From positions 9,858,001 to 9,922,000 of the forward strand of contig OZ024744.1 in assembly GCA_964016885.1 (NCBI GenBank): a stretch of DNA of 64,000 nucleotides, given 5' to 3'. The notes beneath the pieces are model-generated. The model was given only the letters and a program-made list of their open reading frames with translations. It was not told the DNA's origin and ran no database searches. A program made the translations under genes and the position numbers. Origin of the DNA: Eledone cirrhosa. Lineage: Eukaryota. Positions within the stretch are counted from its first letter, which is position 1. Every line of letters begins with the position of its first letter. Below are positions 27,687 to 37,460 of the stretch, piece by piece.

Positions 27687-28241
27687 ATATAGACAATAGG
27701 CCCGCACCCCCTCCCACTGCAAAAACAAGGTCAGCCATTTGGACACTGCTGGCAACAGGACAACCCGTCTAATCCATGCTAGCGTGGAAAAACGGAGGTG
27801 ATGGTGGTACAGCAAAAAAGCACCCGAACCACACTGTAAAGTGGACGTGGAGGTGCCATGGAAAAAAAGCACTCAGTACTCACTGTAAATGAGGTTGGTG
27901 TTAGGAAGGGCATCCAGCTGTAGAAATCAAGCCAGAATCAGTTCCTGTATGAGCAAGACAAGGTCAGCCAACTGGGCACTGCCCACAACAGGACAACCCG
28001 TCCTAGAGTGGAAGAACGGTGATGATGATGATGTTGATTTAGCCTGCCTGCAAGGGTGCGACGGGTCCTATTCAGCACAGCATCTCTCCAGTAGTCACGG
28101 TCCTTCGTCATCTCCGTGAGTTTCAGCGATCTGAGGTCAGCTCTCACCACCCTTGCCAATGTCTTCGGCGATCTTGCTATATAATACAGTATATATATAC
28201 ATATATATAAAATATATCTATATATATATAATATATATAGA

Positions 28242-29660
28242 ATATTTCGTTTCTGAATTTGTTTAGTAAGATTCTTTATCTGAAATCGTGTGTTGAAACC
28301 GATATTGTTATACTTTGGGAGGGTCATGTTGCCAATAAGAAACACACGCACCAGTTGCTTTCACTTCAATTTATTATAATAAATTTATAAATTTAGGAAT
28401 TTATAAATTTCCGGTTGGTTGGTTGGTTCCACAACCAGATGGTTGTTTATATATTGTCAAAGTTCTTTCGTCACACATTCTGTGACCTCTTTAGTGACTG
28501 GGGATTCTTTTCTTTGCTTTTGTGCCTCTCCTTTGTTGTCCTACGCCATCTTGTTTCTGTGTGTGTGCTGTGTGCTCAGTCTGCGCATGCGCCACATCCG
28601 GGTGTCTGTGTGTGTTTATATTTGTTTATTTATTTGTTTATTTACATGTTACAGGTTGGTTGTTTGTTCTATGTGCGTGTGTGTTTTCATTTTGTCCTTA
28701 ATTGTAAGTTGTGATGTTGCTGTTCCACTCATGTTTTCTATTTAATTTTGGTTGTAATTCTTTTATGTTTATTGCCTCTGTGATTTGTCTAAACATTGCG
28801 TCTTTTCTGTGTGTAGATTCTATTTTTATTTCTATGTTCTCTAATTTATGTTCTATTTTAGCATGTTGGTAGAGTACAGATGATTCTTTACTATCTTGAA
28901 GGTCTCGCCAGTGTTCATTTATCCGTTCCCCTACACTACAAGCTGTCTCACCTATGTACACTATATTTTTGTCTCTACATTGTCCTTCAGTACATCTTAT
29001 GCTATATACTACGTTTCTAGTTTTACAGTTAATATGGGGGCTTAATTTACAGGTTATACATTTCTTATCTATACAGGGGGGTCTTTGGAAAGGGTATGTC
29101 TTGCTAATAAGTGTTTTTACGGAGGTACCTGGTCCTTCTACTATCTTAATATTGAGTTTATGTTTATCTAGGGCCCTTCTAAATTTGTAAGCTAATTCAC
29201 CTCTAGGGGTTGTATCGATGAACATTACACTCTGGTATTTATTGCTATCATACCATGAGTTTATTCTATTAGCTTTATTCCTAGTTCTTTCTATTCTATT
29301 CCAAAATTTGCTCCTATACAAGGGGCAGGTCCCATTTGTGTCATTATTTACCATTTTTTCCCATTTGGTTCTGGTTCCTCTATACACTCTGATTTTATCT
29401 CTCTGATTGTAACCAGAGAACTGCATACGGTGGATGAAGTGTTGTATGTGTCTCTCTAGTTCTTCGGGGTTGCACATGCGGGACACGTATCTCATCACCC
29501 GTACCAAATCCGCAATCAGTATGTTGATTTTGGTATGGTCCGAAATAGCTGAGTTTCGGAGGATCAGATATTTGGAAGTCATGGGTTTGGCATAATGGGA
29601 ATGGAGGATTTGTTTTTTGTTATTAATGGTATCTAACCAGAGCTCTGTGTCTAGTACAGG
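28242..29660 (-). mobile_element. Inverted 5'-truncated copy of PLE family 2 (RT C-terminus, GIY-YIG, pseudo-LTR)
   Basis: Reverse complement of about 33012-34369 plus ORF-start sequence; ORF 28698-29582 contains VVYSIRC...YIGETA. Confidence 0.92.
28456..28498 (-). ncRNA. Hammerhead motif in the inverted PLE copy, with a core G5-to-A change
   Basis: GUCA CUAAAGA G GUCACA-GAAUG-UGUGAC GAAA GAACUU UGAC. Confidence 0.65.
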
Positions 29661-30011
29661 GTAAATTAGAGAACATAGAAATAAAAATAGAATCTACACA
29701 CAGAAAAGACGCAATGTTTAGACAAATCACAGAGGCAATAAACATAAAATAATTACAACCAAAATTAAATAGAAAACATAAGTGGAACAGCAACATCACA
29801 ACTTACAATTAAGGACAAAATGAAAACACACATGCACATAGAACAAACAACCAACCTGTAACATGTAAATAAACAAATAAATAAACGAATATAAACACAC
29901 ACAGACAGCCGGATGTGGCGCATGTGCAGACTGAGCACACAACACACACACAGAAACAAGATGGCGTAGGACAACAAAGGAGAGGCACAAAAATAAAGAA
30001 AAGAATCCCCA

Positions 30012-30054
30012 GTCACTGAAGAGGTCACAGAATGTGTGACGAAAGAACTTTGAC
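30012..30054 (+). ncRNA. Minimal type I hammerhead ribozyme, upstream pseudo-LTR
   Basis: GUCA CUGAAGA G GUCACA-GAAUG-UGUGAC GAAA GAACUU^UGAC; predicted cleavage after 30050. Confidence 0.78.
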
Positions 30055-30174
30055 AATATATAAACAACCATCTGGTTGTGGAACCAACCAACCAAAAGGA
30101 AATTTATAAATTTATAAATTTATTATAATAAATTGAAGTGAAAGCAACTGGTGCGTGTGTTTCTTATTGGCAAC

Positions 30175-33100
30175 ATGACCCTCCCAAAGTATAACAATAT
30201 CGGTTTCAACACACGTTTTCAGATAAAGAATCTTGCTAAACAAATTCAGAAACGAAATATCGTAAGCCTTAGCCAGGCTAACAAGATACTGAAAACCACC
30301 ATGTTCTGTTGTCTACGAAAAACAATAACATCTCGACAACTACACTTCATAAAAGAATGTGCCTCGTCCCGAGTTTACACCAACACCATTACCGATGTAA
30401 GAAGATTACAACTCACCAAAAAGCAAGCAGATAGGCTAAAACGAACACTAATTCTAAACATAAAAAAGAAGATCTATAGAGAATTAAGTCATCAAGAAAA
30501 ACATAAGCGTAACCTGATACAAGAAACAACTAAGATCACCACACCAAGAGAAAAACTAATATTTATAAACCTTATACGTCCTGAAGAACAGTACATTGTT
30601 CAAGAATGTGATAAGCACTTTAAAAAGAAAGTAAAGTGGCTTAAACAGATAAAACTAAATCAAGATACTTTAGCGAATACCAATAGATATCCCGACAAAA
30701 TTGACAGTATAAATATGGCCAACATCTCATTAACAGATGAGTTCAACAACAACAACATAAATATATACAGCAACACTATGGTCGACTCTGATGAATTATC
30801 TGTATTACAACTACCACCTAAATATGACACATTCAAGAAGGTAAATATGATTAGTTGTTTGTCAGAAATAGAAAAATCATTTACAAAATTACGTTGGAGC
30901 CTCAAAAACAAAAACAAAAACAAAAGTAACAACATACGCACACACACACACATATACAACACACATCCCAACAACAACAGACACAAACAACAATAACAAC
31001 ACACACAACAATAATAACACACACGGAGACAACAACAACACACATCAACAACAGCACACATCAACAACAACAACAACACACACACACATTCTATGCCTCT
31101 CATCACCACCACAATCTTAACAAACACACAGACACAGAAAACAAGTAATTGCAGTAGCACAGAAATAAGGGAAGGTAATAGGATTGAAAGGAGAAGGGAG
31201 ACTATGGACAGCGAAAATAACCAGGACGAACATACAGACACACAAAATAGAGTAGATAATTGTTTCTACTTTAGGCACAAGGCCAGCAATAAACCAGTGC
31301 ATTACTGGTACTTTATTTTATCGACCCCGTAAGGATGAAAGGCAAAGTCAACCTCGGTGGGATTTGAACTCAGATCGTAAAGGGACGTAACTATGCTGGA
31401 AAGCATGGTGTCCGACCCTCTACCGATACTGCCAATCCACCATCCACCATCAAAATAGAGTAGATAATAAGAATGAGCCAGAGGAAAGGGACAGGAGTAA
31501 TAATGAGAGACATAGAAACAACCATGAGGCTGTTGGTGGAAATAGAAACAACACAACTAACAATAACAATAGCACAAGTACACATAAAGCAGCAGCCTGG
31601 AACACTACTTTTTATAATCCCTCCGATAAGTCGTTCGACCTGCGACGAGTCCACGCCACGACTTTACCTTTTAACAAACGCACGCAATTGCCGTCGCAGG
31701 TCGATGAACAAACAGAAGCAAAATTTAGTATAGCTAGATCTAAACTTAGAAATATTATAGAACAGTATAGCAAGAAGCATAATAGAATGGAGACCCAGCA
31801 ACTGGGAGAAAATTCTGCAAATGGCTTGCGTAAGCTCATGCAGCGCTCGCGTAATGGAGAGATAGCATGCTTTCCAACAGACAAGTCTGGTAGAATGTTG
31901 GTTGACAGTCTGCCAAACTACATCCAGGCAATGCAACCCCACATCACTAACACAAGAGCAGTAACACCACAAGAGCATGAGGATAGAGAAAAAGCCCTCA
32001 ATGCCCATATGGTGATGTGGACAAATATAATGCAGCCCAACAAAAGGACTGCCAACAACTTCCAGGCCTGGAACAATGACGTGCCAGCATTGTATGGGCT
32101 TCGAAAAGACCATAAAACGGGCAGTGACCCTGTCACGGGACCACTAACACGGCCAGTCTGTGGGGCTAACATTGCTAGTAACTACAGACTGTCCTACTTC
32201 CTCTCCCTGATCATACGCCCCGTCATTGAAATGTCCCCAGATGTATGTGACAGCACGGAGGACCTCCTCAGCAGAATCGGCGAGAGTAACCGATCTAGGG
32301 ACCTAACAAACTGCATAATAGGTAGTATGGATGTTGTGTCCCTGTATCCATCTATTGACGTGGATTTTGCTGTGGAGAAATGCGTAGAAATGATCAGTGA
32401 GCAATGTTGAGTTCCGTGGGATTGATACCAATGAGCTGGAACTCCTACTTAAACTTACCTATAGTAATAATTACCTAGACACATATGACCTTAGCAACCT
32501 GTGCTCTACAAGACCAGCAAGAGGCAGACCACCTACCATTACCTCAATGGCCAAGAAAACCCACACAGATAGATGGAACGGGTGGACCAGAGCCATACGG
32601 ACACCCGAAAACCATGATGAACTAAAGAAAATGATCGCACATGCGGTGGGGGCCAGCATAAAATTAACCCTTAAGGAACATATGTTCAAATTTAATGGAA
32701 AAACATATGCCCAAGAGGAAGGAGCAGCCATTGGTGTTAGCATTGCAGGCGACATAGCTAACTTATTCATGGTATGGTGGGACAGTAGACTTAAACTTAA
32801 ACTCAAAGAACAATTAGAAGACCCCTTAACCCTGATAATGCACTCCCGCTACGTTGATGATATAAACATCGTAGTTAAAACACCCCCACAAGAGAACAGT
32901 CAGGATTTAGAGAAAAACACAATGGAAAGCATCCAGCAAATAGCTAACTCCATCCACCAGAGTATTAGAGTTACTATAGACTACCCAAGTAAACACCCCA
33001 ACCATCGATTACCTGTACTAGACACAGAGCTCTGGTTAGATACCATTAATAACAAAAAACAAATCCTCCATTCCCATTATGCCAAACCCATGACTTCCAA

Positions 33101-33973
33101 ATATCTGATCCACCGAAACTCAGCTATTTCAGACCATACCAAAATCAACATACTGATTGCGGATTTGGTACGGGTGATGAGAAACGTGTCCCGCATGTGC
33201 AACCCCGAAGAACTAGAGAGACACATACAACACTTCATCCACCGTATGCAGCTCTCTGGTTACAATCAGAGAGATAAAATCAGAGTGTATAGAGGAACCA
33301 GAACCAAATGGGAAAAATGGTAAATAATGACACAAATGGGACCTGCCCCTTGTATAGGAGCAAATTTTGGAATAGAATAGAAAGAACTAGGAATAAGGCT
33401 AATAGAATAAACTCATGGTATGATAGCAATAAATACCAGAGTGTAATGTTCATCGATACAACCCCTAGAGGTGAATTAGCTTACAAATTTAGAAGGGCCC
33501 TAGATAAACATAAACTCAATATTAAGATAGTAGAAAGACCAGGTACCTCCGTAAAAACAATAATTAGCAAGACATACCCTTTCCAAAGACCCCCCTGTAT
33601 AGATAAGTAATGTATAACCTGTAAATTAAGCCCCCATATTAACTGTAAAACTAGAAACGTAGTATATAGCATAAGATGTACTGAAGGACAATGTAGAGAC
33701 AAAAATATAGTGTACATAGGTGACATAGCTCGTAGTGTAGGGGAACGGATAAATGAACACTGGCGAGACCTTCAAGATAGTAAAGAATCATCTGTACTCT
33801 ACCAACATGCTAAAATAGAACATAAATTAGAGAACATAGAAATAAAAATAGAATCTACACACAGAAAAGACGCAATGTTTAGACAAATCACAGAGGCAAT
33901 AAACATAAAAGAATTACAACCAAAATTAAATAGAAAACATGAGTGGAACAGCAACATCACAACTTACAATTAA
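30175..33973 (+). pseudogene. PLE polyprotein (N-terminal domain, Asn/Thr/His-rich linker, RT, Cys motif, GIY-YIG) with frameshifts, a stop and a SINE insertion
   Basis: MTLPKYNN start, RPVCGAN, GSMDVVSLYPSI, GAAIG, RYVDD, LPVLD, PCIDKxCITC, VVY...YIG and EAINIKELQPKLNRKHEW. Confidence 0.9.
31261..31450 (-). mobile_element. Meta-like tRNA-SINE inserted in the PLE linker
   Basis: Same family as 22378-22578; 18-bp TSD CAAAATAGAGTAGATAAT at 31243-31260 and 31451-31468. Confidence 0.88.
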
Positions 33974-34172
33974 GGACAAAATGAAAACACACACGCACAT
34001 AGAACAAACAACCAACCTGTAACATGTAAATAAACAAATAAATAAACGAATATAAACACACACAGACACCCGGATGTGGCGCATGCGCAGACTGAGCACA
34101 CAACACACACACAGAAACAAGATGGCGTAGGACAACAAAGGAGAGGCACAAAAGCAAAGAAAAGAATCCCCA

Positions 34173-34215
34173 GTCACTGAAGAGGTCACAGAATGTGTGA
34201 CGAAAGAACTTTGAC
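34173..34215 (+). ncRNA. Minimal type I hammerhead ribozyme, downstream pseudo-LTR
   Basis: Identical to 30012-30054; predicted cleavage after 34211. Confidence 0.78.
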
Positions 34216-34394
34216 AATATATAAACAACCATCTGGTTGTGGAACCAACCAACCAACCGGAAATTTATAAATTCCTAAATTTATAAATTTATTATAATAA
34301 ATTGAAGTGAAAGCAACTGGTGCGTGTGTTTCTTATTGGCAACATGACTCTCCCAAAGTATAACAATATATATAGAATATATATATATAATATA

Positions 34395-35269: not shown

Positions 35270-35748
35270 CATCATCATCATCATTTTACGTCCGTTTTTC
35301 CCTGCTTGCAAGGGTGGGACGGGTCCTATTCAGCACAGCATCTCTCCACTTGACACGGTCCTTCGTCATCTCCTCCATGAGCTTCAGCGATCTGAGGTCT
35401 GCTCTCACCACCTCTGCCCATGTTTTTCGTGGTCTTCCTCTACTGCGCCTTCCTTCTACTGGGACTTCCTGGCACTTCTTCACCCATCGGTCATCCTCCA
35501 TGCACATCACATGTCCATACTATCACAGTCTTCTCTCCTGCACACCACAACTTATCCCTCTTATACCCAGTTTCTCTCTCAACTCATCTATGCTTGGTCG
35601 TTCACACACATTGACATTGCACATCCAACGGAGCATACTTGCTTCATTTCTCTCCAGCCGTTGCATATCCTCTGCAGTTGCTGCCCGTGTCTCACTATCA
35701 TGCAGCATCGCACATCTCACACAGGCATCATATAACCATCCTTTCGTG
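35270..35748 (-). mobile_element. RTE subfamily C 3' fragment
   Basis: ...RRSRGRPRKTWAEVV...RPTLASREKRT* directly followed by (TGA)n. Confidence 0.88.
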
Positions 35749-36629: not shown

Positions 36630-37460
36630 CTCCACAAAGTTCAGTGAAGAGCAGCAGAATTCAAAGAGCAAAGATTGTGCCCAGTCCATGAATTGACATT
36701 GTCAATCTATTGTTTTTGCTGCCGGCCTCTGCTTCTCTTACCAGCCAACCCTCCTTCCAGGAATATATAATACCTTTCGATCACCAACAGCAGAGTTTAA
36801 AGAGCAAAGATCAAGTCCAGTCCATAAGTTGACATTATCAAGCCATTGTTTTGGCTGCCGGCCTCTGCTTCTTTTACCAGCTAACCTTCCTTCCAGGAAT
36901 ATATAATACCTTTCGATCACCAACAGCAGAGTTTAAAGAGCAAAGATCAAGTCCAGTCCATAAGTTAACATTATCAAGCCATTGTTTTGGCTGCCGGCCT
37001 CTGCTTCTCTTACCAGCCAACCTTCCTTCCAGGAATATATAATACCTTTCGATCACCAACAGCAGAGTTTAAAGAGCAAAGATCAAGTCCAGTCCATAAG
37101 TTGACATTATCAAGCCATTGTTTTGGCTGCCGGCCTCTGCTTCTCTTACCAGCCAACCATCCTTCCACGAGTTGATCTTTTTATATGACCGTATAGTTTA
37201 AGTAATCTTGACTTGACAATGGATGTAGTTGGTCTAAGTTTGGTAATGTTGAGCAACTCACTGATACAGATACGGTCGCTGAGCCACTTGCCAATCATAA
37301 GTCTCATGATGTGGTTCTGGAATATAGAGAGCTTCTGAAGTGACCTTGTCGTCCAGTTAACACAGTCAAGACCATATAACACAACTGGTAGGATGTATGT
37401 ATCAAAGATCTTAGCCTTCAAATGGTAGGAAACTCGTTTGATGTTAGTATTTCCTTGTTC
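36630..37460 (-). mobile_element. 3' fragment of a different LINE family with a 136-bp coding segment repeated about 3.5 times
   Basis: LPVVLYGLDC...LKLYGHIKR, then repeats of EGRLAGKRSRGRQPKQWLDNV at 136-bp period (36738, 36874, 37010, 37146). Confidence 0.8.

What the first reader, a model, noticed from the sequence alone, without database searches (positions are those of the whole stretch)
30012..34215. Paired hammerhead ribozymes bracket a full-length Penelope-like element
Seen: both direct pseudo-LTRs carry an identical 43-nt motif with helix I GUCA/UGAC, core CUGAAGA, one extra nucleotide after A9, a perfect 6-bp helix II, GAAA and a 2-bp helix III (AG-AA-CU) ending in a CUU site. The copies are 4161 nt apart. 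Established: PLE terminal repeats often encode minimal type I hammerheads that can act as dimers. Inferred: cleavage at 30050 and 34211 would release a unit-length RNA holding the whole RT/GIY-YIG ORF, possibly able to circularise. The non-palindromic helix III plus the A9 insertion is an atypical variant.
Basis: partly seen in the sequence, partly recalled or inferred. Interest (0 to 1): 0.8.

Follow-up and report, generated by a model that had tools for sequence, protein, structure and literature searches.

The report
Hammerheads of a dead Penelope retroelement
Two identical self-cutting-RNA (hammerhead) motifs sit in the end repeats of one broken copy of a very abundant jumping gene of what is likely an octopus, an arrangement already known for this class, and the only odd part is a two-purine loop that is predicted to make the ribozyme weak.

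Summary
The motif is real. The identical 43-mers lie at 30012-30054 and 34173-34215, 4161 nt apart, and form a type I hammerhead. Related families keep the core and show compensatory helix II changes. The pair results from the partial-tandem pseudo-LTRs of a Neptune/Nematis-type Penelope-like element, with 5,085 exact 43-mers and 23,295 matches to the 3' half in the genome. This copy is dead: it has a ~190-bp insertion, frameshifts and a stop. A third, inverted copy carries a natural G5A. The extra nucleotide after A9 is a published PLE-hammerhead trait, not atypical. The non-palindromic helix III loop (AA, GA or AG) is atypical and lineage-wide; palindromic loops appear only at mutation background. 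The fossil copies do not support the unit-length or circle model. Their 3' ends lie 150 or 210 nt downstream of the cut, and 5' junctions do not pile up at it (5 of 85). One A-to-G hypermutated insertion has differently marked pseudo-LTRs. Uncut precursors were most likely the templates, as shown in vitro for an anole PLE. Cleavage itself is untested. The scan noted ordinary PLE hammerheads before in two other genomes. Verdict: a modest variant of a known kind.

The parts
28242..29660 (-). Inverted, 5'-truncated arm of the same element (RT thumb + GIY-YIG in one open 331-aa frame, 3' UTR, pseudo-LTR and the 60-nt 'tail'), ending in TA-rich DNA
28456..28498 (-). Third hammerhead copy with natural G5A (CUAAAGA), predicted inactive
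   Evidence: G5 as an essential core base is recalled knowledge
29662..30200 (+). Upstream pseudo-LTR (5'-truncated partial tandem; its 5' edge differs from copy to copy in the family)
30012..30054 (+). Hammerhead 1 (type I; extra G after A9; 6-bp helix II; helix III A-G-[AA]-C-U; predicted cut 3' of U at 30050)
30175..33973 (+). Broken single ORF: N-terminal region, RT (DKS, KDHK, YVDD), CX4CxxC linker, GIY-YIG with CCHH; five lesions
30201..30260 (+). Optional 60-nt 'tail': family 3' ends fall at the equivalents of 30200 and 30260 (+26 and +86 of the ORF), both ending in ATAT; inferred RT start sites
   Evidence: interpretation after PMC11167929
31261..31450 (.). Later ~190-bp dispersed-repeat insertion with 18-nt target duplication (SINE-like; that label is recalled, not from a call)
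33823..34369 (+). Downstream pseudo-LTR, followed by a (TA)n-rich target
34173..34215 (+). Hammerhead 2, identical to hammerhead 1; predicted cut 3' of U at 34211

Best explanation
The two motifs are the same pseudo-LTR hammerhead copied twice in the partial tandem of a broken Penelope-like element with a Neptune/Nematis-type linker, and the ribozyme is predicted to be a weak, dimer- or protein-dependent cutter that likely left the templates for new insertions uncut. Shown: the motif, its family of tens of thousands of copies, conservation of core and helices between families, the purine-purine loop III, 3' ends 150/210 nt downstream of the cut site next to (TA)n, and no excess of 5' ends at the cut. 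Inferred: RT starts inside the first ~90 nt of the ORF on an uncut, more-than-unit transcript and reads through the hammerhead. A 2-nt loop cannot close helix III in a monomer, and the dimer helix carries tandem A.A, G.A or A.G mismatches, so cleavage would be slow and would need the element's protein or other chaperones. Cutting would then process or limit the RNA and would not make the template. This locus itself is a decaying fossil.
For: Motif and fold. 5,085 exact copies; 23,295 matches to the 3' half. Between families the 11 core bases are identical; hammerhead identity is 0.77 vs flanks 0.53/0.50 (family C, about 50-65% protein identity) and 0.95 vs 0.69/0.63 (family D). In helix II, 3 of 6 pairs change on both sides. 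Subfamily differences fall at N7, 9a, loop II, loop III and N17. Dimer helix III: +2.4 (AA), -1.7 (GA), -0.4 (AG) vs -8.3 kcal/mol for a CG palindrome; the double hammerhead is 1.6-2.8 kcal/mol worse than two monomers, against 5.5 better for a palindromic family in the same genome. 3' ends: 38 of 47 exactly at the two sites; 42 of 45 flanked by TA-rich DNA. 5' junctions: 5 of 85 at the cut, 22 of 85 at -3..0 vs 22.7 expected. Of 21 long copies, 0 end at the upstream cut and 13 read through it. PMC11167929 (sections read): internal RT initiation at two sites, a protein-assisted HHR, unprocessed RNA the dominant substrate, and no reads ending at the cut. PMC4209133: min-HHRs inactive as monomers, weak as dimers.
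Against: No cleavage was measured. Nearest-neighbour energies ignore the tertiary core and loop I/II contacts. Read-through at the cut site is equally expected from a ligated circle. The alignment was picked by a pattern that fixed the core, G10.1-C11.1 and the helix III G/C, and its rows are related, so those invariants and the 0/500 shuffle results are not independent tests. AA, GA and AG differ by single transitions, so 'purine-only' may reflect mutation bias at free sites. Clade placement rests on motifs; no tree with named references was built.
Confidence: 0.68

Rival explanations
1. One reading: both hammerheads cut, the unit-length RNA is ligated to a circle, and RT runs more than once round it, which yields the pseudo-LTRs.
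For: Explains why 3' ends lie downstream of the cut and why copies read through it. Proposed for PLEs in PMC4209133. The core is conserved between families, so cutting mattered to the master elements.
Against: In the one marked insertion found, the upstream pseudo-LTR and the inverted arm share 35 A>G changes (51 differences in all) that the contiguous downstream pseudo-LTR lacks; one circle copied twice would mark both. Upstream pseudo-LTRs are as short (median 340 nt, max 931, n=16) as ordinary truncated copies (median 265, n=29; p=0.41), although those events had already copied ~4 kb. No linear cut products appear as templates. The marked case is n=1 and could be a second insertion or a later conversion.
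Confidence: 0.15
2. The fold is kept as a binding site for the element's RT/EN protein, or as a passenger, and rarely cuts; loop III has therefore drifted away from a palindrome.
For: Dimer helix III is unstable for the commonest (AA) form. No palindromic subfamily amplified, although AU and UA are one step away: 202 + 136 copies with a pyrimidine in loop III, against 23,295 matches of the looser pattern, i.e. mutation background. PMC8557442 raises that HHRs may 'simply parasitize PLEs' (passage).
Against: All 11 catalytic core bases, G15.2-C16.2 and a cleavable N17 (U or A; C rarely; not G as a subfamily state) are kept across families whose flanks are ~50% alike.
Confidence: 0.12
3. A chance look-alike duplicated by the terminal repeat.
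For: No Rfam hammerhead match; neutral decay within the subfamily; the two copies are not independent.
Against: Compensatory helix II changes and identical core between families; position in the pseudo-LTR as in other PLEs.
Confidence: 0.02

Closest known systems
Minimal and small-helix-III type I hammerheads of metazoan PLEs (Cervera & de la Pena 2014, PMC4209133; main text parts 1-3 of 4 and supplement file 2 parts 1-2 of 3 read)
   Same: Position in both pseudo-LTRs; CUGANGA-N core; extra base at 9/10.1; G10.1-C11.1; long helix II; short helix I; GAAA-G-NN-C-U-H layout as in their Oikopleura (G-AU-C) and Marsupenaeus (G-CG-C) rows.
   Different: Loop III is AA, GA or AG, not a palindrome; none of the 56 rows of Fig. 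S3 shows G-RR-C (a few rows are non-palindromic in other ways, e.g. Hydra, Latimeria 3). The extra base is G (consensus H; G in 1 of 56 rows).
PAc (Poseidon of Anolis carolinensis; Frangieh et al. 2024, PMC11167929; parts 1-2 of 4 read)
   Same: Two 3' ends inside the start of the ORF that define an optional tail; AT-rich targets; hammerhead upstream of the RT start sites.
   Different: PAc is Penelope/Poseidon clade and its cut lies 26 nt downstream of the start codon; here the cut lies 125 nt upstream of the ATG, the tail is 60 nt, and the protein has the CX4CxxC linker.
Neptune and Nematis clades of C-terminal EN+ PLEs (as defined in Craig et al. 2021, PMC8557442; passages read)
   Same: RT then C-terminal GIY-YIG; CX2-5CxxC linker; CCHH; pseudo-LTRs, inverted 5' arm, tail; (TA)n targeting; HHR in the pseudo-LTR.
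   Different: Which of the two clades was not resolved (no named reference proteins on hand).
Newt/axolotl satellite hammerheads acting as dimers (PMC7229834, passages read)
   Same: Very weak helix III, poor monomer activity.
   Different: Those have a palindromic tetraloop, canonical loop I/II contacts and short tandem repeats; here the neighbours are 4 kb apart.

Membership tests
Type I hammerhead ribozyme | Core C3-U4-G5-A6-N7-G8-A9, G12-A13-A14, A15.1-U16.1, H17 | tested here: met
   identical in families A, C, D
Type I hammerhead ribozyme | Helices I and II supported by covariation | tested here: met
   helix II 3 of 6 pairs change on both sides, 94.6% of cells paired; helix I only 2 bp plus an internal loop in family C (related rows, pattern-picked)
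Type I hammerhead ribozyme | Site-specific, Mg-dependent self-cleavage | not testable with these tools
   no assay or raw RNA reads
PLE min-HHR (Cervera & de la Pena consensus) | Extra nucleotide between 9 and 10.1; G10.1-C11.1 | tested here: met
PLE min-HHR (Cervera & de la Pena consensus) | Palindromic 15.2-16.2 and loop 3 | tested here: not met
   15.2-16.2 are complementary (G-C) but the loop is AA/GA/AG in 100 of 100 listed matches; pyrimidine-containing loops total 338
C-terminal EN+ Penelope-like element | Single ORF, RT followed by GIY-YIG with CCHH | tested here: met
   weak Pfam RVT_1 and GIY-YIG matches, both below curated cut-offs; 43 homologues; motifs in alignment; broken in this copy
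C-terminal EN+ Penelope-like element | Pseudo-LTRs, inverted 5'-truncated arm, optional tail | tested here: met
Neptune/Nematis clades | CX2-5CxxC linker before GIY-YIG | tested here: met
   C207, C212, C215 invariant in 10 of 10 aligned proteins
Neptune/Nematis clades | RT phylogeny with named clade members | not tested
Active (autonomous) PLE copy | Intact ORF | tested here: not met
   five lesions here; 0 of 20 long relatives intact

The most novel reading that the evidence does not exclude
This octopod PLE lineage has replaced the Watson-Crick palindrome of helix III with tandem purine-purine pairs (A.A, G.A, A.G), giving a hammerhead that stays off until the element's own protein assembles the dimer. 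Its tens of thousands of fossil copies, including one reverse-transcribed from an ADAR-hyperedited RNA, record that uncut linear precursors and not circles were the templates, which would settle the circle question for a PLE from genome sequence alone.
Probability: 0.22. Interest if true: 0.62.

Novelty: new variant of a known kind. Interest (0 to 1): 0.32.

Why it matters
The function of PLE hammerheads is still open (PMC8557442). The finding as written is an ordinary example. Two by-products are useful. First, a lineage-wide non-palindromic helix III, next to a palindromic family in the same genome, is a natural pair for testing the dimer rule, and Rfam models miss it. Second, a family with more than 20,000 copies lets 5' junctions and template-borne edits test the circle model without bench work. 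The first counts here favour uncut templates.

Tried and rejected
Rfam scan: no hammerhead match. RNA evidence: no RNA holder listed, so expression, ends and circles were not examined. The DNA-type contigs laid only repeat known variants (34193 and 34208 A>G); 37 rows were not shown. Pile-up of 5' ends at the cut: not found. That call used 100 of 139 matches, 96 unique; 11 were dropped because the upstream DNA was still same-sense element, and two kept rows (L147, L225) are borderline deletions. The only peak (+4, 20 of 85) lies in the TATA run. A distal sense-strand partner for helix III: none. An amplified palindromic revertant subfamily: none. Shared rare alleles between the pseudo-LTRs of ordinary insertions: too few to tell circle from tandem. 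ADAR neighbour preference in the hypermutated copy: 5' G not depleted (6 of 34 vs 31 of 204), 3' G mildly enriched (8 of 34 vs 26 of 204), so inconclusive. Literature: Lunse, Weinberg & Breaker 2016/17 (small-stem-III PLE hammerheads) and Arkhipova 2017 are not held. Either may already list G-RR-C variants, so the novelty of loop III is provisional. Supplement file 1 of PMC4209133 was not searchable. Searches (listings) showed no paper on octopus PLE hammerheads or on purine-mismatch helix III. The giant-squid paper counts 235 Hammerhead_1 loci without detail, and the O. vulgaris repeat paper has no occurrence of 'ribozyme'. One search (listing) showed no report of ADAR-edited genomic retrotransposon copies; it was one narrow search. 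No earlier scan notes exist for this genome or sequence.

Full report
Observation. The 43-mer is present and identical at 30012-30054 and 34173-34215, 4161 nt apart; U17 is 30050/34211. It reads GUCA CUGAAGA G GUCACA GAAUG UGUGAC GAA AG AA CU U UGAC. The MFE structure forms helices I and II (-9.2 kcal/mol). Rfam gives no hammerhead at E<=10. The two copies are not independent: they lie in direct repeats 29662-30200 and 33823-34369 (10 substitutions in 539 nt). A third copy lies on the minus strand at 28456-28498 in an inverted arm (28242-29660) and carries a natural G5A.

The element. Between the repeats is one broken ORF from ATG 30175 to the stop at 33973. Its pieces match RVT_1 and GIY-YIG weakly and 43 longer proteins strongly, the best an Octopus vulgaris protein at 70%; the host is therefore likely an octopod (inference). 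The protein has DKS, KDHK, YVDD, a CX4CxxC linker invariant in 10 of 10 aligned proteins, and the CCHH pattern. In Craig et al. (PMC8557442, passages) that linker marks Neptune and Nematis among C-terminal-EN PLEs; no tree was built. This copy has five lesions: a stop at 30994-30996 after indels in a low-complexity tract, a ~190-bp insertion with an 18-nt duplication that 20 of 20 long relatives lack, deletions near 32400 and 33313, and a private TAA at 33608 (24 of 25 aligned relatives have A). None of the 20 long relatives fetched (of 40 listed, 1,084 candidates) has an intact ORF.

Family. The exact 43-mer occurs 5,085 times, the 3' half with free loop and N17 23,295 times, and a downstream 26-mer 15,801 times; reversed controls were 0. 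Of 47 distinct 3' ends, 20 fall at the equivalent of 30200 and 18 at 30260; 42 of the 45 ends at or near these sites run into TA-rich DNA. This is the PLE 'tail', which Frangieh et al. (PMC11167929, parts 1-2 read) traced to two RT start sites inside the ORF.

Is it a selected hammerhead? Among 43 of 97 copies (subfamily A, picked without reference to the motif), the core decays like the flank: 8 of 430 vs 113 of 5,650. Genomic copies, this one included, are therefore fossils. Between families the result reverses. All 11 core bases are identical, and the motif is 0.77 and 0.95 alike against flanks of 0.50-0.69. Family C, about 50-65% identical in protein, has helix II GUUGCA/UGCAAC or GUCGCA/UGCGAC against GUCACA/UGUGAC. 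Three of six helix II pairs change on both sides (rows related and picked by a pattern that fixed the core). Subfamily differences sit at N7, 9a, loop II, loop III and N17.

What is atypical. G at that place is uncommon (1 of 56 rows). They also give a palindromic loop 3 as consensus, and none of the 56 rows shows G-RR-C. Here the loop is AA, GA or AG in 100 of 100 listed matches. Loops with a pyrimidine number 202 + 136 genome-wide, about the mutation background, so no palindromic revertant amplified. Another family in the same genome has a palindromic G-CG-C loop (its PLE identity rests on one endonuclease match, L181). In a dimer the RR loops give tandem mismatches: +2.4, -1.7 and -0.4 kcal/mol against -8.3 for CG, and the double hammerhead is not favoured over two monomers. 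Caveats: the three loop states differ by single transitions; the energy model ignores tertiary contacts; Lunse et al. on small-stem-III variants could not be read.

Does the cut make the template? A linear RNA cut at both sites could template at most 210 nt from the family's RT start sites (inference), so templates were uncut or ligated. If cut RNAs were copied, 5' junctions would gather at the cut. A pattern that selects junctions in a 15-nt window found 139 copies; of the 100 listed, 96 were unique and 85 were kept as true junctions. Five lie at the cut and 22 at -3..0, against 22.7 expected. Of 21 long copies none ends at the upstream cut (nearest -12), 13 read through and 8 stop short of it. 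Circle against uncut precursor is harder to decide. Upstream pseudo-LTRs are as short as ordinary truncated copies (median 340 vs 265 nt, p=0.41). One insertion, the only A>G-clustered segment among 351 unique alignments (0 with T>C or G>A clusters) and unique in the genome, has 35 A>G changes shared by its upstream pseudo-LTR and inverted arm but absent from its contiguous downstream pseudo-LTR. Two laps on one circle would mark both. This is a single case; a second insertion or a later conversion could explain it, and the ADAR neighbour signature is inconclusive.

Mechanism. The best reading (0.68) is that a more-than-unit transcript from an intact master was bound by the RT/EN protein, nicked (TA)n DNA primed at the AUAU-ending sites +26/+86, and RT read through the uncut hammerhead. 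A second priming made the inverted arm (69 of 85 junctions abut inverted element). The hammerhead is kept as a slow, dimer- or protein-assisted cutter with a processing or limiting role. This matches PAc, where the HHR cut only with protein, HHR mutants did not change insertion, and no reads ended at the cut. Priming, protein assistance and role are inferred. The circle model was already proposed in 2014 and keeps 0.15.

Verdict. A real hammerhead pair in a dead PLE copy, of a known kind, with a lineage-wide non-palindromic helix III as a provisional variant. Earlier scan notes on two other genomes reached the same 'ordinary PLE hammerhead' verdict; they were leads only. Interest 0.32.

Noticed in passing
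L273:2380-2751 (-) and L273:4141-4532 (+); partner pseudo-LTR in L103 (G000:C1, about 2.083-2.090 Mb): One insertion of this family carries dense sense-strand A>G changes over ~250 nt around the hammerhead (34 of 55 substitutions vs the nearest copy). They are shared by the upstream pseudo-LTR and the inverted arm, absent from the downstream pseudo-LTR, and unique in the genome. It looks like an ADAR-hyperedited RNA that was reverse-transcribed into the germ line; 5' neighbour bias did not match.
   Followed up: partly
window 28456-28498 (-): Third hammerhead copy with a natural G5A in the inverted arm, whose C-terminal 331-aa frame is still open.
   Followed up: yes
L177, L178, L180-L183, L185, L186, L192, L193, L195 and similar (one search hits): A separate, older hammerhead family in the same genome: helix II GGAUU/AAUCC and palindromic G-CG-C helix III decaying through CpG; L181 has an upstream GIY-YIG match.
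   Followed up: partly
L144:~2915 (-), L173:~475 (-), L265:~7036 (-); L042, L048, L122, L151, L162; L015: Further hammerhead-like families from a descriptor scan of the loci: UGCA-palindrome helix III with 7-bp helix I; a U3-A8 core variant (UUGAAAA) with CCGG; a loopless CG type.
   Followed up: no
window 31261-31450: ~190-bp dispersed repeat with an 18-nt target duplication; it recurs in many unrelated loci.
   Followed up: partly
window 33823: The downstream copy lacks 6 nt present in 22 of 23 relatives, at the very point where the upstream pseudo-LTR begins (29662 equivalent).
   Followed up: no
window 30880-31150 and 31500-31600: Low-complexity CA/AAC tracts inside the ORF (Asn/Thr/His-rich linker) vary in length between copies.
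   Followed up: no
L187:1497-1570 (-): One copy has a deletion from just after the predicted cut site to ~20 nt before the ATG, with TG microhomology; single case.
   Followed up: no
window 28038-28181 and 35296-35442; 36652-37000: Two copies of another repeat flank the element 7.26 kb apart, and a 136-bp tandem repeat starts at 36652.
   Followed up: no
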